Of a DNA stretch of 64,000 nt, positions 1 to 7,345 are shown piece after piece. A program made the translations under genes and the position numbers. The notes below the pieces were generated by a model. That model did not search any database. It was not told the DNA's origin and saw nothing but the letters and a program-made list of their open reading frames with translations. Within the stretch, counting starts at the first letter, position 1. Each line of letters begins with the position of its first letter. The DNA is from Thermoplasmatota archaeon (GTDB lineage: Archaea > Thermoplasmatota > Penumbrarchaeia > Penumbrarchaeales > Penumbrarchaeaceae): NCBI GenBank assembly GCA_029762535.1, contig JARVGK010000008.1, positions 32,001 through 96,000 on the forward strand. Reading direction: 5' to 3'.

Positions 1-967
1 GATCATCATCCCCGACTCGGCCCACGGAACCAACCCGGCTTCGGCAGTGATGGCCGGGTTCAAGGTCATCGAGATCAAGTCCGCCCCCGACGGTTCGGTG
101 GACCTGGACGCATTGAAAGGCGCCCTCTCCGAGAGGACTGCTGCGTTCATGATAACCAACCCCTCTACCCTGGGCATATTCGAGAAGAACATATGTGAGA
201 TACAGCAGGCATGCCACGATGCGGGAGCGCTTCTGTATTACGACGGGGCGAACTTAAACGCGTTGATGGGGATCTCAAGGCCGGGGGACATGGGCTTTGA
301 CATCATGCACTACAACCTGCACAAGACCTTCTCAACCCCACACGGCGGCGGTGGGCCAGGGGCCGGACCCGTCGCGGTAACGGCCGAACTGGCAAAATTC
401 CTACCCGTCCCGGTGGTGGTGAAGGAGGGCAACACCTACAAGCTAGATCACGACAGGCCTGATTCGATCGGCAAGGTCAAGGGCTTCTACGGGAACGTGG
501 GGGTCCTTATCAGGGCATGGGCCTACATCAAGACCCTTGGGGCGGAGGGGTTGAAAAGGACCTCGGAACTGGCGGTCCTCAATGCATCCTACATAAGATC
601 GAGAATAGAGTCCGTATATCCCGTGCCGTTCAACGCACCGTCGAAGCACGAGTTCGTTGCCTCCGCGGATTTCCTCAAGGAGAATGGGGGTTCCGCCAAG
701 GATGTCGCAAAGATGCTGGCAGAGAGAGGCCTGCATCCGCCTACGAACTACTTCCCCCTTATCGTAAGCGAGGCGCTGATGATCGAACCGACCGAGAGCG
801 AGACGATGGAGGAACTGGACAGGTTCTGCGATGCTCTTCTCGATATAGCCAAGTCGGATCCGGAAGAGTGGAAGAAGGCCCCGCGAACCACGACCGTCTC
901 AAGGGTCGATGACATAACCGCCGCCAAGAACCTGATCCTCAACTGGAACCAGTTACCCAGGGAATGA
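1..967 (+). CDS. gcvPB: Glycine dehydrogenase (decarboxylating) subunit 2, 5'-truncated by window edge
   Basis: TNPSTLG, YYDGANLNA, PLP-lysine motif NLHKTFSTPHGGGGPG, EALMIEPTESE; the frame continues upstream of 47 (IIIPDSAHGTNPASA). Confidence 0.95.
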   Translation, partial: IIIPDSAHGTNPASAVMAGFKVIEIKSAPDGSVDLDALKGALSERTAAFMITNPSTLGIFEKNICEIQQACHDAGALLYYDGANLNALMGISRPGDMGFDIMHYNLHKTFSTPHGGGGPGAGPVAVTAELAKFLPVPVVVKEGNTYKLDHDRPDSIGKVKGFYGNVGVLIRAWAYIKTLGAEGLKRTSELAVLNASYIRSRIESVYPVPFNAPSKHEFVASADFLKENGGSAKDVAKMLAERGLHPPTNYFPLIVSEALMIEPTESETMEELDRFCDALLDIAKSDPEEWKKAPRTTTVSRVDDITAAKNLILNWNQLPRE

Positions 968-979
968 AAATTGAATAGC

Positions 980-2212
980 TCAAAAATCACCCATCATGAA
1001 CAGGGTCGCTATGACCTTGCAGTCGCTTATCATATTATCCACGAGGATGTGCTCGTTCGGCGCATGGGCCTGGTTCAAAACCGTCTCCCAGACAGCCACC
1101 TCGAACCCGGCGTTCCGGAGCATTGCAGCGCAGGTGCCACCTCCTATCCCCCCTGTATAGGCCTTCTTCCCGGTCGCCATCTCGATAGCGCGTGAGAGAT
1201 TTCTTACGATCATGGCATCCGGCCCGGTGGGATGGATGGTTCTCTCGTTGAGGACCACCTCGAGATCGATCCTTACTCCAGTCCTTGATTCTATATCATC
1301 CGCGACCCCTCTCATCACCGATAGGACATCCTCAGCATCATACAGAGGTAAAAGCCGGCAGTCCATGTAAAAGACATCCTCACCAGGCAGCACGTTGATC
1401 CCCGACACACCTGGTTCCCTTTTGGTAGGTTCGAAACTGGAAAGAGGGTGATCGAACGAATCGTCCCTCTGGTCAAAGCGCTCATGGAGCGCCCGATCCG
1501 CTTCGGATCCGAACATCATGGACGCCCTGAAGGCGTTGTTGCCCAGGTGGGGCATGCTTGCGTGACATTGCTTTCCCTTGACCTTTACCCTGACCCAGAG
1601 AAGGGATTTCTCACCGATCTCGATCATTCTCCCTTCAGGCTCTCCGTGATCGGGGACGAGGATGAGGTCGCTATCTCGAAAAACGCCCTCTTTGAGAAGA
1701 TGGCCGATACCTTTCTCGTTCGTCTCCTCCTCGTCGGAGACGAAGAACAGGGCAATATCAAAGGCTGGTTCCGCTCCGGTATCGAGAAGCGCCCTGGCCG
1801 CGAATATGGAGGCGGTAAGGGCCTGTCCGTTGTCCTCGGCGCCCCTGCCCGTGACCTGGCCATCCCGGACCTGAGCGTCGAAGGGATCGGACTCCCATGC
1901 GCCCGGATCGCCGGGCGGGACGACGTCCATGTGGGTGATCACGACGATCCTCCTATCGGAACTCCGACCCTTTATATCGACCATGATATTGGGCCTGAAA
2001 CCGGAACTCATATCACTGTCGGGAGCATCGAACCGCAGTATTTTCCCGAATCCGCGGTCCCGAAGGTATTTCTGGATGAACGCGGCCTTGTGCTCCTCTC
2101 CGCTGCCTCCCGATCCAGGACCTACGGCGGGTATCGAGATGATGTCGGTAAGGAAGCGAACCATCTCATCCTTATGTCCATCTATATGTTCAAACCACTC
2201 TTTATCGGCCAT
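980..2212 (-). CDS. M20 family (ArgE/DapE-like) metallohydrolase
   Basis: Metal ligands THMDVVP, GRGAEDNG, SDEE, AHAPNE; GKQCHAS. Start re-called to MADKEWF at 2212, 1 bp after the cphA stop. Confidence 0.88.
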   Translation of the reverse strand: MADKEWFEHIDGHKDEMVRFLTDIISIPAVGPGSGGSGEEHKAAFIQKYLRDRGFGKILRFDAPDSDMSSGFRPNIMVDIKGRSSDRRIVVITHMDVVPPGDPGAWESDPFDAQVRDGQVTGRGAEDNGQALTASIFAARALLDTGAEPAFDIALFFVSDEEETNEKGIGHLLKEGVFRDSDLILVPDHGEPEGRMIEIGEKSLLWVRVKVKGKQCHASMPHLGNNAFRASMMFGSEADRALHERFDQRDDSFDHPLSSFEPTKREPGVSGINVLPGEDVFYMDCRLLPLYDAEDVLSVMRGVADDIESRTGVRIDLEVVLNERTIHPTGPDAMIVRNLSRAIEMATGKKAYTGGIGGGTCAAMLRNAGFEVAVWETVLNQAHAPNEHILVDNMISDCKVIATLFMMGDF

Positions 2213-2213
2213 A

Positions 2214-4880
2214 TCAGTCCTCATTCGATGGGTCAATTGACTGCATTTCGCGTTTGCGGGACGTGTATTCCCTGAGAGAGTCCTCCTTGTAATCCAATAC
2301 GTCCTGTATGACCTGCTGGACATTATCCGCCTGAAGGACCACCACATCGCCCTTACGTGCCATGTCAAGGGCATACCTTGTCGCTTCCCTGCCGTCGAAC
2401 ACCATCGATATGTCCTCTTCTTTCAAACCGCCTTCGACAAGGCCTTGCTTGACGAGGCCCGCCACCTCCCCCAGGGGGCGGCCCCGCGGGTCCGTATCGG
2501 CGATGACAACATGGTCGTAGTATCTGGAGAGGGTGAGGCCGTACTCCTTGATGTCCTCATCCCTGCGGTTTCCAGTTCCTGCCGCCATGCGGATCCTCCT
2601 GCCCGGTGCCAGATGGGGTAGCAGCTCTCCAGTTGCCTTGATCGCGCCCATGTTATGTCCGAAATCTATTATCGCCTTGAAATCCCGGACCTCGATTATG
2701 TTCATCCTGCCGGGAGATAGGCCCAATGACGGGCTGAAGCTGACCAGCCCCGCCCTTATCTGCTTCTCGTTCAGGCCCAGGGCGGATGCGGCTGCCGCCG
2801 CGGCCATTGCGTTAAGGATGTTGAAGGTCGCTTTGCCCCCAAGGGTTATCGGCACCTCGACCACCTTGGCGACATTGGATGTCCACCCACCTTTCTGAAT
2901 GATGATGGTCTCGTCTTTGACGGTAACGTTCATGCTGCCTTTGTTCAGATTCTCTTTAAGGGCAGGGTTCTCGGGGTCCAATGAGAATAATATCGGCATA
3001 CCGCCTGCCTTGTCCCTGAGTTTGAGAACGATCGGATCGTCCGCGTTCAGGACGGAGTATCCTGTCTCCTTAACGGTCTCCACCACGATACCCTTCAGGT
3101 TCGCCAGGTCCTCCAAGGTATCGATGCCCCCTTCCCCGAGGTGATCGGAGGTCACGTTCAAGAGGACACCAACATCGCTCTCGTAAAAACCAAGCCCCCT
3201 TCTGAGGATCCCGCCCCTGGCCACCTCAAGGACCGCATGGTCTATGGTGGAATCCATAAGTACTACCTTTGCCCCGCCCGGGCCGCTGTAATCACCGACC
3301 AGTATGGGATCGTTGTTAACGACCACCGCATCCGTGGAGGTCATACCCACCCTGGCGCCGTTAAGTTCCAGAATGTGGGAGATCAGGCGGACGGTGGTCG
3401 TCTTGCCGTTGGTCCCGGTAACGGCAATTATCGGCACCTTGAACTCCTTTCCCGGAGGGAAGAGCATGTCAAGCACTTTTGCCGAGACGTTCCTGGGCTT
3501 TCCCTCCGAAGGGCTCAGGTGCATCCTGAACCCCGGGGCTGCATTGACCTCGATAACGGCCCCGCAGCCTTCGCATATCGGTTGGCTGAGATCGTTGGCG
3601 ATCATATCGATCCCCATCACGTTGAGGCCCACGATCTTGGATATCCTCTCGGCCATGGCCCTGTTGACCGGGTGCACATCATCCGTGACGTCGATCGCCT
3701 TCCCTCCTGCGCTCAGATTGGCCGTCGATTTGATGTAGACCTTCTCGCCCTCCCTCAACACCGTTTCGAGCGTCATCTGTTTGAACTTGAGCAGCCTCTC
3801 CGTCATGTAGTCTATCTTGATCCTTGTCAGGTTCTTTTCGTGTCCGAAACCCCTCGCTGGGTCGCTGTTGATCGCTTCGATGAGCTCCCTGATCGTTGAG
3901 GTGCCATCTCCAACAACGTAGGCTGGCTCTCTTAATGCAGCCGCGGTGAACTTCCCGTCTATGACGAGTATCCTGAAATCGAAACCCGCGATGAATCTCT
4001 CGATGAGCACCGTTCGGTTGTACTTCCTGGCCACCTCGTAGGCGATCTCGAGTTCCTCTCGTGTCCTGATATCGGTGGTTATCCCCTTTCCATGGTTGCC
4101 GGAGAGAGGTTTCACCACAACGGGATAACCGATCCTGTCCGCAATTCGGCATGCCTCATCGAGCTCCCAGGCCGAATAACCCTTTGGTACCGGAATACCC
4201 ATACGATCGAGCATCTCTTTGGCCCTCTCCTTGTCATCGGCGATCTCCACGCCTATGGATGAGGTGTTGTCCATCATCGTCGCCTGTATCCTTCTCTGGT
4301 GGACGCCGTATCCCAGCTGGACATAGCTCTCGTCGTTGAGCCTTATGACCGGTATATCCCTCTTCTTGGCCTCATCGACGATGGACTGCGTCGAGGGGCC
4401 GTAGAGGTTCTTTTCCCTTATCTCCTTGAGTTCGTAGACGACCTTCCTGATGTCCACATCCTCTCCCTTGAAAAGGCTCTCAACGATACGTACGGCGGCC
4501 CTGCCCGCCTCGATCCCGACCTGCTCATCACGGTAGCGGAAGACCACATGATAGATGCCCTTCCTTTTTGTGTCGAAGGTCTTGCCGAAACCCACCTCGG
4601 TCCTCGCCAGACACTGCAGTTCTATTGAGACATGTTCGACCACGTGCCCGGCCCAGGTCCCGTCTTCGATCCTCTTGAAGAAACCTCCCTCCGTACCAAC
4701 TGAACAACGATGTTCTCTAAGCGAAGGGATCGCCTCTTCGATCCTCTTCCTGAACCCCGGGACCTTGTCCGTGGGCGTTTCCTCCAGATCGCCGATGTCC
4801 AGTTCCATGAACACTGTCGGATATCGGCTGTAGTAATTCGGACCTCTGAGAGCGCGTATCTCCAATATTTCCATATTCAT
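2214..4880 (-). CDS. cphA: Cyanophycin synthetase (CphA1 type)
   Basis: N domain (LRGPNY, HRC-x19-HVVEH), QLGYGVHQRRIQAT, ATP-grasp (VVKPLSGNHGKG, NLSAGG, EVNAAPG), Mur-ligase-like domain (VTGTNGKTTT, LEVARGGILRRGL, DHLG, PGRMN); about 888 aa. Start placed at MNMEIL after a G-rich SD. Confidence 0.95.
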   Translation of the reverse strand: MNMEILEIRALRGPNYYSRYPTVFMELDIGDLEETPTDKVPGFRKRIEEAIPSLREHRCSVGTEGGFFKRIEDGTWAGHVVEHVSIELQCLARTEVGFGKTFDTKRKGIYHVVFRYRDEQVGIEAGRAAVRIVESLFKGEDVDIRKVVYELKEIREKNLYGPSTQSIVDEAKKRDIPVIRLNDESYVQLGYGVHQRRIQATMMDNTSSIGVEIADDKERAKEMLDRMGIPVPKGYSAWELDEACRIADRIGYPVVVKPLSGNHGKGITTDIRTREELEIAYEVARKYNRTVLIERFIAGFDFRILVIDGKFTAAALREPAYVVGDGTSTIRELIEAINSDPARGFGHEKNLTRIKIDYMTERLLKFKQMTLETVLREGEKVYIKSTANLSAGGKAIDVTDDVHPVNRAMAERISKIVGLNVMGIDMIANDLSQPICEGCGAVIEVNAAPGFRMHLSPSEGKPRNVSAKVLDMLFPPGKEFKVPIIAVTGTNGKTTTVRLISHILELNGARVGMTSTDAVVVNNDPILVGDYSGPGGAKVVLMDSTIDHAVLEVARGGILRRGLGFYESDVGVLLNVTSDHLGEGGIDTLEDLANLKGIVVETVKETGYSVLNADDPIVLKLRDKAGGMPILFSLDPENPALKENLNKGSMNVTVKDETIIIQKGGWTSNVAKVVEVPITLGGKATFNILNAMAAAAAASALGLNEKQIRAGLVSFSPSLGLSPGRMNIIEVRDFKAIIDFGHNMGAIKATGELLPHLAPGRRIRMAAGTGNRRDEDIKEYGLTLSRYYDHVVIADTDPRGRPLGEVAGLVKQGLVEGGLKEEDISMVFDGREATRYALDMARKGDVVVLQADNVQQVIQDVLDYKEDSLREYTSRKREMQSIDPSNED

Positions 4881-4888
4881 ACCCCCCG

Positions 4889-5761
4889 TCATCTGCAAAC
4901 CAGTTCCAAGCATTCCATGTCCTCTGGCTTGAGGTACTTCATTTCCTTTAAATTATAACCATAACCCCGGACCAGAGTATGAAGATGTACGTTCTCCACA
5001 GCGATCGCATCACCTTGTTTGATAGTTGTGATGTTCGAATACCTGATGTGGCGCCCGTCGAATATCACAACAAGACCCGATCCTATGGCCTTTATTATAT
5101 GCCCCCTCTCTATGACGACACCGGTGTTCTCCCCGAGGCCCAAGCCTATATGTCCTGGGTTGGTGCTCGCTATCTGCATCAAGCGGCTGAACCTTCCCCT
5201 TTTTATGAAATGACTGTCGATAATCACGTTGTTTATGAGTCCGATCCCGGCGGTCACATTGACGGTTCCTTTAAGGATCGCTTCCGAGGCCTCCCCGCCG
5301 TAGATCATGGTCTCCGACATCGCGCTCGCTCCCGCGCTAGTTCCGGCGATGATCGCTCCGTCGTTGAAATACCTGGACCTGACCTCTTTGAGGATCCCGG
5401 TCCCTCCGAGAATGCTTGTTATGCGGAGTTGGTCTCCGCCTGTGAAGAATATGATGTCCGCCTCATGGACCCTGGCTATTAACGACCCATCATTCCCCTT
5501 ATCACGACTATCAACATGCATCAGATCTATATCGTTCCCGCCTATCTTCCCGAAGGCTTTGAGATACTGTTTCCCAACCTCGTTTGGGATCTCGCTCGCG
5601 GTCGTGATGACCTCGATCCTGACGACATCCTTCCTCGCCAGGGATATGATCGTCCTCAGGATCGAAAGATCGTGCTTCTTGTCCTCGTTGCCTCCGACGG
5701 CGACCAGGATCCCTTTCGGTTCCTGAAAGGACGACGGCCCTCTTTCCGAGAAATGGGTCAT
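4889..5761 (-). CDS. cphB: Cyanophycinase (peptidase S51), intracellular
   Basis: VGGNEDK, FFTGGDQLRI, nucleophile GTSAGA, IDSHF..RGRFSRL, GLGE; no signal peptide; directly upstream of cphA. Confidence 0.93.
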   Translation of the reverse strand: MTHFSERGPSSFQEPKGILVAVGGNEDKKHDLSILRTIISLARKDVVRIEVITTASEIPNEVGKQYLKAFGKIGGNDIDLMHVDSRDKGNDGSLIARVHEADIIFFTGGDQLRITSILGGTGILKEVRSRYFNDGAIIAGTSAGASAMSETMIYGGEASEAILKGTVNVTAGIGLINNVIIDSHFIKRGRFSRLMQIASTNPGHIGLGLGENTGVVIERGHIIKAIGSGLVVIFDGRHIRYSNITTIKQGDAIAVENVHLHTLVRGYGYNLKEMKYLKPEDMECLELVCR

Positions 5762-5787
5762 GGAAGCATGACTTGAGTTTCAGAAGA

Positions 5788-5795
5788 TATTTAAA
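5788..5795 (-). promoter_or_regulatory. Candidate archaeal TATA box of the cphB-cphA-M20 operon
   Basis: TTTAAATA on the minus strand about 27 bp upstream of the cphB ATG, a spacing typical of a leaderless archaeal transcript. Confidence 0.55.
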
Positions 5796-5923
5796 CCCAC
5801 GCTCCAACCGGCCTATAACCGCTCACGGCGATGTATGTTCCAGAATACCGGGGTATATACATTAATAAAGCAAGAATCGATGCGGTATGGGCCGGATCAC
5901 TTAACGGTAAAGGATGTGCGGAT

Positions 5924-7345
5924 ATGACGGATAGCGACAACACGATGGAGATCATCGTCGTCGGACTGGGTGCGAGCGGCCTCTACGCGGCAAAGAGCGC
6001 ACTCAGCCAGAACAGACAGGGCCATGTGACCATCATCGAGAAAAGGGATTTCGACCAGTTCTCACCCTGTGGCCTACCGTTCGTCATAGAGGGTATCGTT
6101 CCTGACTTCGAACACCTCAAACACGTCGTCCCCGAGGTAAAAGGGAAGCTATCCAAGCTCCTGAGGCACGAGGTCCTCTCGGTGGATCATGATAACAGGA
6201 CCTTGAAGGTAAGGGACCTCTCCACGAATGAAGATAAGGATATCGGGTACGACGCATTGATACTTTCGAACGGGTCGATCCCAGTGAACCTTCCCATCCC
6301 GGGAGCGAAAGAACTGCTGGGAAAAGGGGTATTCTTCTGCTCGAGCATCGACGATTCATCGGACATACTTGAAACCGCACTCAACGCTCCAGGAAAAAGG
6401 GCCGTTGTGGTCGGAGGAGGTGCCATAGGCCTCGAGGTCGCAGTGGCCTTGAAGGAAAGAGGGTTGGACGTATGCGTGACGAAGAGAACCCCTCCCCCGT
6501 TCCCGAGGAACCTCGACCCCGAAATGGGGAAACTGATAACCGACCATCTCATAGAGCTGGGCATCGATGTGAGGTTCGGCAAGGGAATCGACGCCATAAA
6601 CGGGAGCGACATTGTGACCTCCGTCACCATTCAGGGGGAGGAGGTCCCCTGCGACCTCGTCGTGATGGCGGTAGGTACACGACCCAACACCTCACTGGCC
6701 GAAAGCACAGGCTGCTTGACGGTCAGGGACGGTATAGTGGTCGATAACAGGATGGAGACGACCGTCAAAGGGATCTTCGCCACGGGGGACTGCGTCAGGA
6801 CATATTCCCGCATCGACGGCACGTCGGCCACCATGCAGCTTGCCACATCCGCTTTCAGGCAGGGCATGGTAGCCGGGACCAATGCCGCAGGAGGCAATGT
6901 GGGATATGATGGTGTGCTCAACACGTTCCTCACCAAGATAGGGAGGTTGGAGATCGCATCCACCGGATACACGCTCGAGCAGGCGAAGGCCTTGGGATAT
7001 GATGCGATCGGGATATCGACCAGGAAGGAGATCAAGCCCCATTACATGCCCGACTGCCCCGATATCAACCTCAGGGTCGTATGCGAGAAGATTGACGGCA
7101 GGATACTAGGCTTCCAGGCCGTCGGCGAACAGGGCGCCGGGTGGAGGGCAAATATATTCGCCCTTGCGATACAGGCAAGGATGACCTTGCAGGATATCAT
7201 GGATGCTGAGCTGTCCTACAATCCTCCGGTATCCCAGATGTACGATCCGATCTACCAGCTTGTCGAGATAGCCCTCAAGAGGCTGAGGCTGGAATTCCCT
7301 TCCCCGAAGGAGGTCTTCATTCCGGATGAGCAGAAGAGGTGGTAG
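5924..7345 (+). CDS. FAD-dependent pyridine nucleotide-disulfide oxidoreductase (NADH oxidase / CoA-disulfide reductase family)
   Basis: GLGASG dinucleotide fold, single-Cys FSPCGLP, VVGGGAIGLE, IFATGDC, YNPP C-terminal motif; start probably MTDSDN at 5924. Confidence 0.88.
   Translation: MTDSDNTMEIIVVGLGASGLYAAKSALSQNRQGHVTIIEKRDFDQFSPCGLPFVIEGIVPDFEHLKHVVPEVKGKLSKLLRHEVLSVDHDNRTLKVRDLSTNEDKDIGYDALILSNGSIPVNLPIPGAKELLGKGVFFCSSIDDSSDILETALNAPGKRAVVVGGGAIGLEVAVALKERGLDVCVTKRTPPPFPRNLDPEMGKLITDHLIELGIDVRFGKGIDAINGSDIVTSVTIQGEEVPCDLVVMAVGTRPNTSLAESTGCLTVRDGIVVDNRMETTVKGIFATGDCVRTYSRIDGTSATMQLATSAFRQGMVAGTNAAGGNVGYDGVLNTFLTKIGRLEIASTGYTLEQAKALGYDAIGISTRKEIKPHYMPDCPDINLRVVCEKIDGRILGFQAVGEQGAGWRANIFALAIQARMTLQDIMDAELSYNPPVSQMYDPIYQLVEIALKRLRLEFPSPKEVFIPDEQKRW

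What the first reader, a model, noticed from the sequence alone, without database searches (positions are those of the whole stretch)
980..5795. Apparently complete cyanophycin storage operon (cphB-cphA-peptidase) in an archaeon
Seen: a full-length CphA1 and a cyanophycinase with intact motifs, 8 bp apart, then an M20 hydrolase 1 bp downstream, behind a TATA-like box at leaderless spacing. They sit among archaeal core genes (AlaRS, RNase P RNA, pfdA) with no mobile-element marks. Established: CphA1 makes multi-L-arginyl-poly-L-aspartate and CphB cleaves it to beta-Asp-Arg; to my knowledge the pathway has been characterised only in bacteria. Inference: this archaeon synthesises and mobilises cyanophycin as an N/C reserve, probably after an old horizontal transfer that has come under archaeal promoter control.
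Basis: partly seen in the sequence, partly recalled or inferred. Interest (0 to 1): 0.92.

Follow-up and report, generated by a model that had tools for sequence, protein, structure and literature searches.

The report
Archaeal cyanophycin operon with M20 hydrolase
A Thermoplasmatota archaeon carries an intact, conserved operon for making and breaking down the nitrogen-storage polymer cyanophycin, and its third gene, an M20 metallohydrolase, is a good candidate for a still-unidentified enzyme of the last degradation step.

Summary
On the minus strand lie cphB (5761..4889), cphA1 (4880..2214) and an M20 hydrolase (2212..980). The gaps are 8 bp and 1 bp, and a TTTAAATA box sits 26 nt before the cphB ATG. 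CphA and CphB score far above NCBIfam's curated cut-offs and keep all checked catalytic residues.

The host is archaeal. Independent assemblies of related genera show the same junctions on both sides, so this is not a chimera.

The cluster is not unique. CphA was found in 41 of 401 sampled Thermoplasmatota genomes (23 genera, at least 9 families). The held literature does not describe archaeal CphA, although NCBI already annotates such proteins.

The M20 belongs to a clade found beside cphA in every archaeal genome searched. The same slot holds the known isoaspartyl dipeptidase IaaA in a Bacteroidota cluster and in other archaeal families. The whole host family lacks IaaA and IadA. I read the M20 as the probable beta-Asp-Arg dipeptidase (about 0.55).

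The CphA tree interleaves archaea and bacteria, so there were several inter-domain transfers of unresolved direction. No polymer, enzyme activity or transcript was shown. Other readers of this scan had already flagged the M20 and the N-domain motif.

The parts
5787..5794 (-). TATA box (TTTAAATA) of the cphB-cphA-M20 operon. It ends 26 nt before the cphB ATG, which predicts a leaderless or nearly leaderless mRNA. The box is palindromic and lies in the 69-bp divergent spacer shared with the CoA-disulfide-reductase-like gene.
   Evidence: Sequence read. TTTAAATA or TTTATATA at the same distance before cphB in all the archaeal relatives whose start could be placed (12 loci, several genera), and no such box in the bacterial-context locus L042. 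The transcription start was not measured.
4889..5761 (-). cphB, an intracellular cyanophycinase (290 aa, peptidase S51)
   Evidence: TIGR02069 244 bits against a cut-off of 126.6. Matches cyanophycinase structures 7UQV (E = 8e-59) and 3EN0 (E = 1.5e-45). The equivalents of 3EN0 Ser132, His174 and Glu201 are conserved (GTSAGA, DSHF, GENT). The N-terminus MTHFSERGPSSFQEPKG has no hydrophobic signal sequence. It is the only copy in the genome.
2214..4880 (-). cphA, cyanophycin synthetase 1 (888 aa: N domain, ATP-grasp G domain, Mur-ligase-like M domain)
   Evidence: TIGR02068 1163 bits against a cut-off of 850. Scores 798 bits over its full length against Synechocystis CphA1 structure 7LG5. The equivalents of G-domain H267 (GNHG) and M-domain D585/H586 (SDHLG) are conserved (residue roles from PMC9262961).
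4632..4706 (-). Cx19HxxEH motif of the CphA N domain (C59...H79-V-V-E82-H83), the primer-generating metallopeptidase site
   Evidence: Alignment. The motif and its role are described in PMC9262961. It predicts primer-independent synthesis.
980..2212 (-). cph-linked M20 metallohydrolase (410 aa, DapE/ArgE-like fold), the candidate beta-Asp-Arg dipeptidase
   Evidence: NF010589 499 bits. Metal and catalytic residues H94, D127, E161, E162, D188 and H383 are conserved. The AlphaFold model has pLDDT 94, and its nearest solved folds are DapE, carnosinase CN2 and ArgE, with PahZ2 also listed. Members of its clade lie next to cphA in every archaeal genome searched. It occupies the operon slot that holds IaaA elsewhere.
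2..967 (+). gcvPB 3' part, the convergent left neighbour and native flank
   Evidence: NF003346 491 bits. The same M20-gcvPB-gcvPA junction occurs in G004, another genus, on a 258 kb contig.
5831..7345 (+). CoA-disulfide-reductase-like flavoprotein, the divergent right neighbour and native flank
   Evidence: Pyr_redox_2 and TIGR03385-like, below the cut-off. The same CoADR-cphB junction occurs in G004, G011, G023 and L037.

Best explanation
This is a working three-gene cyanophycin operon of a Thermoplasmatota archaeon. A close relative's isolate name places the lineage in class EX4484-6, 'Ca. Penumbrarchaeia', which are peptide-fermenting sediment archaea.

A conserved archaeal TATA box drives a leaderless polycistronic mRNA for cphB, cphA and the M20 gene. 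CphA1 has intact G, M and self-priming N-domain sites. It polymerises Asp and Arg with ATP into multi-L-arginyl-poly-L-aspartate when amino acids are in surplus. The cytoplasmic CphB releases beta-Asp-Arg dipeptides from the polymer. The M20 enzyme most likely splits beta-Asp-Arg into Asp and Arg. It would then stand in for the IaaA, IadA or CphZ dipeptidases that this archaeal family lacks.

Shown: gene identity, catalytic residues, archaeal host, conservation, purifying selection, the conserved promoter motif, and the gene-neighbourhood pattern of the M20. Inferred: polymer synthesis and its storage role (about 0.85 given the sequence evidence), the M20 substrate (about 0.55), and leaderless transcription.

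The cluster has moved between archaea and bacteria more than once. The direction of these transfers is open.
For: Gene identity and active sites: with residue roles from PMC9262961.

Archaeal host and no chimera:
- Archaeal RNase P RNA, archaeal-type AlaRS and prefoldin lie nearby.
- The order AlaRS-CoADR-cphB-cphA-M20-gcvPB-gcvPA is identical in G004 of another genus.
- Codon usage is unremarkable.

Conservation:
- CphA gives strong matches (E <= 1e-100) in 16 of the family's 23 other genomes and in 41 of 401 Thermoplasmatota genomes; 35 of the 41 are over the curated cut-off.
- dN/dS is 0.033 for cphA, 0.069 for cphB and 0.074 for the M20.
- The TATA box is conserved 24-27 nt before the cphB start in the archaeal loci whose start could be placed.

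M20 as dipeptidase:
1. The genomes carry two paralogs. The 55-68% identical copy occurs only where cphA, or in one genome a cphA remnant, occurs, and always next to it. The 43-47% copy is found in nearly all genomes.
2. The cph-linked copies form one clade in the tree (SH-aLRT 97 and 96). That clade also includes bacterial-context cphB-cphA-M20 clusters.
3. In a Bacteroidota cluster, IaaA occupies the same slot, overlapping the end of cphA. In other archaeal families an IaaA-like gene sits beside cphB instead of an M20.
4. Asparaginase_2 (IaaA) and IadA were found in 0 of 24 genomes of the family, and no CphZ-like protein was found in the window's own genome.
5. The clade signature H189, E376 and N380 flanks the metal ligands D188 and H383.
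6. Chemistry, from established knowledge: beta-Asp-Arg is N-(2-aminosuccinyl)-arginine, and the nearest folds are desuccinylases (DapE) and a beta-Ala dipeptidase. The M14 desuccinylase relative CphZ was recruited for this very reaction (PMC9974463).
7. Sharon et al. state that the dipeptidases of Bacteroidota and Firmicutes 'remain undiscovered' (PMC10206079).
Against: - No experiment supports any step: no polymer, no enzyme assay and no transcript.
- The M20 role rests on gene neighbourhood and residue patterns only.
- Two proteins with the same signature (P0185, P0212) are known or likely not to be next to cphA.
- In G033 an intact linked-type M20 sits beside a decayed cphA with no cphB. 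The enzyme may therefore have a use without cyanophycin.
- The closest Clostridia cphBA clusters have no M20.
- Both paralogs hit the same uncharacterised NCBIfam model, NF010589.
- Putting synthetase and hydrolases in one operon raises a futile-cycle question. It is not answered here, although the same arrangement is common in bacteria.
Confidence: 0.72

Rival explanations
1. The cphBA genes are functional, but the M20 is not a cyanophycin dipeptidase. It would be a deacylase of amino-acid metabolism (ArgE, DapE or LysK-like), for example one that supplies arginine. Alternatively it is a general peptidase that travels with the cluster, and beta-Asp-Arg is split by some other, unrecognised enzyme.
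For: - The best sequence and fold matches are DapE and ArgE.
- The family model NF010589 is uncharacterised, and the unlinked paralog hits it equally well.
- Signature-bearing relatives exist away from cphA.
- G033 keeps the M20 after cphA decayed.
- Clostridia relatives of the cluster manage without an M20.
Against: - The linked clade co-occurs with cphA, or a cphA remnant, and lies beside it in every archaeal genome searched.
- The M20 subclades largely track the CphA subclades by eye.
- The gene is translationally coupled to cphA, with a 1-bp gap.
- It is interchangeable in position with the proven dipeptidase family IaaA.
- The family has no IaaA or IadA at all.
- A biosynthetic ArgE would not be expected to appear only where cphA is present.
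Confidence: 0.25
2. The cluster serves to scavenge cyanophycin or beta-Asp-Arg made by other organisms, such as bacteria in the sediment, rather than as the cell's own reserve. On this view cphA would be inactive or make another product.
For: - These archaea are described as protein and peptide degraders (PMC12220078).
- For Culexarchaeia, archaeal cyanophycinase alone was interpreted this way (PMC9723716).
Against: - CphB has no signal peptide.
- CphA is full length, keeps all three active sites and is the most strongly constrained of the three genes, with dN/dS 0.033.
- cphA and cphB are co-transcribed by design.
Confidence: 0.07
3. The cluster is bacterial DNA wrongly joined or binned into an archaeal genome.
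For: - The closest non-archaeal CphAs are 63-68% identical.
- One other archaeal bin has a suspicious 4.4 kb contig carrying a Bacteroidota-like IaaA (L085).
Against: - The cluster lies at 33-38 kb on a 106.5 kb contig, between archaeal genes on both sides.
- Independent assemblies show the same two junctions (G004) or the same right-hand junction (G011, G023, L037).
- An archaeal TATA box is conserved.
- Codon usage is typical of the window.
Confidence: 0.01

Closest known systems
Bacterial cphB-cphA(-iaaA) cyanophycin clusters, e.g. the Bacteroidota cluster L066-L068, and Synechocystis sp. UTEX2470 CphA1 (PDB 7LG5)
   Same: The gene order cphB-cphA-third gene is the same. CphA is 63% identical to the protein of that Bacteroidota cluster (P0087) and matches 7LG5 over its full length at 798 bits. 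The G, M and N-domain catalytic residues are the same. CphB keeps the Ser-His-Glu triad.
   Different: The host is an archaeon. The promoter is an archaeal TATA box at leaderless spacing. The third gene is an M20 metallohydrolase instead of the Ntn-hydrolase IaaA.
CphZ, the cyanophycin dipeptide hydrolase (M14, AstE-like; PMC9974463)
   Same: The proposed role is the same: a dedicated beta-Asp-Arg hydrolase encoded in a cphA-cphB cluster of organisms that lack IaaA and IadA. The evolutionary logic is also the same, a zinc desuccinylase-type enzyme recruited to cleave a 2-aminosuccinyl amide.
   Different: The fold and family are unrelated (M20 di-metal DapE/ArgE type versus M14). The M20 has no biochemical evidence.
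DapE (N-succinyl-L,L-diaminopimelate desuccinylase; PDB 5VO3, 7UOI) and other M20 enzymes (carnosinase CN2, ArgE, poly(aspartic acid) hydrolase PahZ2, 7LJH)
   Same: The two-domain M20 fold with a dimerisation domain is shared, with TM-scores of 0.7-0.8. All metal ligands and the general-base Glu are conserved.
   Different: Identity is only 17-23%. The gene sits in a cph operon. It carries a clade-specific H189/E376/N380 signature next to the metal ligands. The organisms carry a second, unlinked paralog.
Archaeal cyanophycinase reported in Culexarchaeia (PMC9723716)
   Same: It is a genomic prediction of cyanophycin metabolism in uncultured archaea, without experiments.
   Different: That report concerns cyanophycinase only and interprets it as use of external polymer. 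Here the synthetase is present as well, in a conserved operon, in a different phylum.

Membership tests
Cyanophycin synthetase 1 (CphA1) | Three-domain architecture: N domain, ATP-grasp G domain and Mur-ligase-like M domain in one chain of about 870-900 aa | tested here: met
   Pfam finds Cyanophycin_syn (36-148), ATP-grasp families (about 225-330), Mur_ligase_M (498-709) and Mur_ligase_C (735-861), numbered on the longer 899-aa ORF. The alignment to 7LG5 covers the full length.
Cyanophycin synthetase 1 (CphA1) | Score above the curated equivalog cut-off | tested here: met
   TIGR02068 1163.4 bits against 850; NF010623 1110 bits against 877.
Cyanophycin synthetase 1 (CphA1) | Catalytic residues of the G domain (H267) and M domain (D585, H586), in SuCphA1 numbering | tested here: met
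   GNHG and SDHLG align to these positions. Their roles come from the inactivating mutants in PMC9262961.
Cyanophycin synthetase 1 (CphA1) | N-domain Cx19HxxEH primer-generating site, present in about 83% of CphA1s and absent from CphA2 | tested here: met
   C59-x19-H79-V-V-E82-H83 is present (PMC9262961).
Cyanophycin synthetase 1 (CphA1) | Makes multi-L-arginyl-poly-L-aspartate from Asp, Arg and ATP | not testable with these tools
   This needs expression and a polymer assay.
Cyanophycinase CphB (peptidase S51) | Score above the equivalog cut-off, and the Ser-His-Glu triad (3EN0 S132, H174, E201) | tested here: met
   TIGR02069 244 bits against 126.6. The triad equivalents are conserved in the alignment to 3EN0. 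Pocket residues recalled from Law et al. 2009: Q101, D172, R178, R180 and R183 are conserved, and Q173 is Ser.
Cyanophycinase CphB (peptidase S51) | Intracellular form with no secretion signal, as opposed to CphE | tested here: met
   The N-terminus is hydrophilic, judged by eye from the sequence. No signal-peptide predictor was available.
Known cyanophycin dipeptidases (IaaA, IadA, CphZ) | The third gene belongs to Asparaginase_2, the isoAsp_dipep amidohydrolase family, or the M14 AstE/AspA family | tested here: not met
   The third gene is Peptidase_M20 plus M20_dimer. It cannot be filed under any known cyanophycin dipeptidase family and is only proposed to work like one.
M20 DapE/ArgE-type metallohydrolase | Di-metal ligands (His, Asp, Glu, Asp/Glu, His), the general-base Glu and a dimerisation domain | tested here: met
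   H94, D127, E161/E162, D188 and H383 are invariant. M20_dimer is found at 253-360, numbered on the longer 464-aa ORF. The model has pLDDT 94, and DapE is the top fold match.
M20 DapE/ArgE-type metallohydrolase | Substrate: beta-Asp-Arg versus N-succinyl-DAP or N-acetylornithine | not testable with these tools
   Only context and signature residues are available.
Archaeal chromosome (host assignment) | Archaeal marker genes on the same contig, and the same junctions in independent related assemblies | tested here: met
   Archaeal RNase P RNA, archaeal AlaRS and prefoldin are present. Synteny is conserved in G004, G011 and G023. Relatives are named Thermoplasmatota archaeon.

The most novel reading that the evidence does not exclude
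The cph-linked M20 clade (signature PD-H189, W-E376, N380) would be a fourth, unrelated family of cyanophycin dipeptide hydrolase. It would fill the 'missing dipeptidase' gap in these archaea and in part of the bacteria that carry cphB-cphA-M20.

Cyanophycin would be a common reserve polymer of Thermoplasmatota, present in about a tenth of genomes. The M20-bearing cluster would have been assembled in archaea and later exported to bacteria. On this reading the Clostridia cphBA clade nests inside archaeal diversity.
Probability: 0.4. Interest if true: 0.78.

Novelty: new variant of a known kind. Interest (0 to 1): 0.64.

Why it matters
Cyanophycin is treated in the literature as a bacterial polymer. 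A 2025 survey states that CphA is specific to bacteria in its data set (PMC11915815). The paper that describes the class of a close relative does not mention cyanophycin at all (PMC12220078).

Complete, selected cyanophycin operons in many Thermoplasmatota would add a nitrogen, carbon and energy reserve to the physiology of abundant uncultured sediment archaea. They would also add archaea to the cyanophycin cycle.

The M20 gives a concrete and cheaply testable candidate for a problem the cyanophycin field has named: the unidentified beta-Asp-Arg dipeptidases in lineages without IaaA, IadA or CphZ. A self-priming CphA1 from a new lineage may also interest those working on biopolymer production.

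Tried and rejected
I used synteny in independent assemblies instead.
- Chimera or contamination. Rejected on flanks, synteny, promoter and codon usage.
- Known dipeptidases in the window's own genome. IadA gave only a weak amidohydrolase match of 32 bits. Asparaginase_2 gave none. The AstE_AspA hybrid domain gave none. The AstE_AspA catalytic domain gave one marginal 25.9-bit match inside a 909-aa ORF, which is unlike a CphZ.
- Arginine deiminase was not found. Carbamate kinase and an arginase-family gene are present, so the route of arginine use is left open.
- Context of the unlinked M20 paralog (L046). It was uninformative: an unknown 784-aa protein, an aminotransferase and a Nudix hydrolase.
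- 'Single archaeal clade of CphA'. The AU test rejected it (p = 0.0039), but the group was named after seeing the tree and the tree is a quick LG+G4 search.
- 'M20 recruited from an archaeal housekeeping gene'. The linked clade nests among M20s of sister Thermoplasmatota families. However, the root is a midpoint root, several intermediate rows have no taxonomy, and bacteria hold about 50% identical members of the family. I leave this as a lead.
- Literature searches for archaeal cphA found only the Culexarchaeia cyanophycinase note. The combination of cyanophycin and M20 gave nothing relevant among the 15 of 32 papers listed.

Full report
**1. What is there**

Three genes lie head to tail on the minus strand.

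| Gene | Start..stop | Length | Spacing |
|---|---|---|---|
| cphB | ATG 5761 .. TGA 4889 | 290 aa | first gene |
| cphA | ATG 4880 .. TGA 2214 | 888 aa | 8 bp after the cphB stop, behind GGGGGGT |
| M20 | ATG 2212 .. TGA 980 | 410 aa | 1 bp after the cphA stop |

A TTTAAATA box at 5794-5787 ends 26 nt before the cphB ATG. The longest-ORF starts listed by the ORF finder (4913 and 2374) overlap the upstream genes. The family models begin at the shorter starts given above.

**2. Identity of the proteins**

CphA:
- It scores 1163 bits on the equivalog TIGR02068, whose cut-off is 850.
- It has the Cyanophycin_syn N domain, an ATP-grasp domain and Mur-ligase M and C domains.
- It aligns end to end with Synechocystis sp. 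UTEX2470 CphA1 (7LG5, 798 bits).
- In that alignment the G-domain His (H267, GNHG) and the M-domain Asp-His (D585/H586, SDHLG) are conserved. PMC9262961 uses mutations at these positions to inactivate the two domains.
- The N-domain motif Cx19HxxEH is present as C59...H79-V-V-E82-H83. The same paper shows that this motif makes primers and confers primer independence.

CphB:
- It scores 244 bits on TIGR02069, whose cut-off is 126.6.
- It aligns with cyanophycinase structures 7UQV and 3EN0, and the equivalents of Ser132, His174 and Glu201 are conserved.
- Its N-terminus has no signal sequence, so it is the intracellular type.

The third protein:
- It has Peptidase_M20 and M20_dimer domains and scores 499 bits on NF010589, an uncharacterised 'M20 family metallo-hydrolase' model.
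- Its metal ligands and general base are intact: H94, D127, E161/E162, D188 and H383.
- A confident model (pLDDT 94) is closest to DapE desuccinylases. Carnosinase CN2, Dug1p and ArgE follow, and further down the list comes the poly(aspartic acid) hydrolase PahZ2.

**3. Host and assembly**

- The window is G000:C91:32001-96000 on a 106.5 kb contig of a 2.96 Mb, 93%-complete genome.
- Around the cluster lie gcvPB, a CoA-disulfide-reductase-like gene, an MBL-fold hydrolase, archaeal-type AlaRS, archaeal RNase P RNA, prefoldin and an SRP54-type GTPase, probably FtsY.
- The nearest CphA and M20 homologues in public data are named 'Thermoplasmatota archaeon'.
- One relative (L014) is the isolate 'Protein_d157_A_EX4484-6'. 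It comes from the class described as 'Ca. Penumbrarchaeia', protein-degrading sediment archaea (PMC12220078).
- In G004, of another genus and on a 258 kb contig, the order AlaRS-CoADR-cphB-cphA-M20-gcvPB-gcvPA is identical. G011, G023 and L037 share the CoADR-cphB side.
- GC3 and codon usage of the three genes are within the spread of the window's genes.

A chimeric join is therefore excluded as far as this can be done without reads.

**4. Distribution and selection**

- Strong CphA matches (E <= 1e-100) occur in 16 of the family's 23 other genomes.
- In the phylum sample they occur in 41 of 401 Thermoplasmatota genomes, spread over 23 of 162 genera and at least nine families. Of the 41, 35 are over the curated cut-off.
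- For two species of one genus, dN/dS is 0.033 (cphA), 0.069 (cphB) and 0.074 (M20), at dS of about 1.1-1.3.
- Before cphB, all the archaeal relatives whose start could be placed have TTTAAATA or TTTATATA 24-27 nt ahead of the start codon. A bacterial-context copy (L042) has none.

This supports archaeal promoter control and leaderless transcription. No transcript was seen.

**5. The M20 gene**

Genomes of the class hold two paralogs.
- One, 43-47% identical to the window's M20, is found in nearly all genomes, whether or not they have cphA. The window's own genome carries it at G000:C7.
- The other, 55-68% identical, occurs only in genomes with cphA, or in one genome (G033) with a cphA remnant. 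It always lies directly beside it.

The linked copies form one clade (SH-aLRT 97 and 96). That clade also contains M20s from cphB-cphA-M20 or M20-cphB-cphA clusters on contigs with bacterial features (L042-L045; L038 is labelled 'uncultured bacterium'). By eye, its subclades largely track those of the CphA tree.

In a Bacteroidota cluster with 63% identical CphA, the slot after cphA is filled by IaaA, a proven isoaspartyl dipeptidase family. The IaaA gene overlaps the cphA stop. Among other Thermoplasmatota families the third gene varies:
- f30 has cphB-cphA-M20.
- f16 and f35 have an IaaA-like gene directly before cphB.

Clusters therefore carry either an M20 or an IaaA-type gene.

None of the 24 genomes of the window's family has Asparaginase_2 or IadA. 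The window's own genome has no CphZ-like protein.

The linked clade differs from all other family members at three positions that flank metal ligands. These are H189 after D188, E376 after W375, and N380 before H383.

Chemically, beta-Asp-Arg is an N-(2-aminosuccinyl) amino acid. The M14 desuccinylase relative CphZ was recruited for this exact reaction (PMC9974463). Sharon et al. state that the dipeptidases of Bacteroidota and Firmicutes 'remain undiscovered' (PMC10206079).

I therefore read the M20 as the probable beta-Asp-Arg hydrolase, at about 0.55. The caveats are these:
- At least one signature-bearing relative, P0185, is not next to cphA on its 8.4 kb contig.
- G033 keeps the M20 beside a decayed cphA.
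- The nearest Clostridia clusters lack an M20.

**6. Evolution**

I built the CphA tree with a quick LG+G4 search and rooted it with 45-47% identical representatives. Its branching order is:
1. A pair of archaeal sequences without an M20 (L034, L035) branches first.
2. L045 follows.
3. Next comes a clade of Acidobacteriota, Bacteroidota and Aminicenantes.
4. Last comes a clade in which the window's family forms three subclades, with a Bacillota (Clostridia) clade and L042 nested among them.

Holding the family's CphAs together costs 81.7 log-likelihood units (AU p = 0.0039). The group was defined after seeing the tree.

Within the family, genera g1, g5 and g6 share the chromosomal site. Genera g3 and g4 carry the cluster elsewhere. 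G003 (g4) groups away from G009 (g4) in both the CphA and M20 trees.

The history therefore includes vertical descent within part of the family, plus several transfers of the whole cluster within and between domains. The linked M20 clade nests among M20s of sister Thermoplasmatota families, which hints at an archaeal origin for the M20-bearing version. Rooting and taxon labels are too weak to claim this.

**7. Novelty**

- The held literature has no report of archaeal CphA.
- The Culexarchaeia paper notes archaeal cyanophycinase only and says the topic has had 'extremely limited discussion' (PMC9723716).
- A 2025 study found CphA 'specific to bacteria' in its data set (PMC11915815).
- The paper on the relative's class never mentions cyanophycin.
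- NCBI's pipeline, however, already names these proteins cyanophycin synthetase.
- The enzymes themselves are canonical. What is new is the archaeal setting and its breadth, the archaeal promoter, and the M20 as a non-orthologous third gene.
- Other first readers of this scan had already flagged the M20 and the N-domain motif on this same stretch. I tested both here.

**8. Verdict**

The cluster is not unique to this archaeon, and its history is not a single transfer. Function remains inferred until the three proteins are assayed.

Noticed in passing
L091 (G156:C15), L090 (G339:C77), L089 (G246:C8): In another Thermoplasmatota family (f35) a second CphA-like ORF lies in tandem right after cphA1. 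In L090 and L091 it matches strongly only the Mur-ligase half and weakly the N-terminal part. L089 has two near-full cphA genes in tandem. This may be a CphA2-like or heteromeric synthetase.
   Followed up: no
L079, L082, L087, L088, L090, L091, L093: Archaeal families f16 and f35 have an Asparaginase_2 (IaaA-like) gene directly upstream of cphB. It is about 30% identical to the Bacteroidota IaaA. These clusters have no M20, so the third gene is either IaaA-type or M20.
   Followed up: partly
L063 6934-8690 (G033:C1, single 3.58 Mb contig): An intact linked-type M20 sits beside a 150-residue C-terminal remnant of cphA, and no cphB was detected. The cluster has decayed but the M20 is kept.
   Followed up: partly
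L008/L012/L076 (G020:C2) and G007:C109: The cph-linked M20 of G020 is split into two overlapping pieces with a TAA stop. The cphA of G007 has one in-frame TAA. These could be pseudogenes or assembly errors.
   Followed up: no
window 5762-5830 and the upstream regions of cphB in L001-L016: Besides the TATA box, the archaeal cphB promoters share CCAT(C/G)A just upstream of it and (C/T)TCA(A/G)G about 10-15 nt before the ATG. These may be regulator sites. In the window the TATA box is palindromic and sits in the 69-bp spacer shared with the divergent CoADR-like gene.
   Followed up: partly
G000:C7:8544-9761 (L046 4039-5304): The genome's second, unlinked M20 paralog also hits NF010589 (506 bits). 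In the tree it groups with M20s of Bacteroidetes, Gemmatimonadota, KSB1, Calditrichaeota and Deltaproteobacteria, not with those of sister archaeal families.
   Followed up: partly
L085 (G239:C30, 4.4 kb contig): This contig carries cphB-cphA-IaaA, with an IaaA 77% identical to the Bacteroidota one, in a 1.2 Mb archaeal bin. It may be a mis-binned bacterial contig, so the phylum count may include a few contaminants.
   Followed up: no
L042/L043 (metagenome contigs of 117-137 kb): A cphB-cphA-M20 cluster lies among genes with a T9SS sorting domain (Por_Secre_tail), a GerE response regulator and a DeoR sugar operon. Its CphA and M20 nest inside the archaeal family's diversity next to G003. This looks like a recent archaeon-bacterium exchange.
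   Followed up: partly
G000:C4:50624-50980: A marginal AstE_AspA catalytic-domain match (25.9 bits, cut-off 25) lies inside a 909-aa open frame. It is probably a large M14-type peptidase rather than a CphZ.
   Followed up: no
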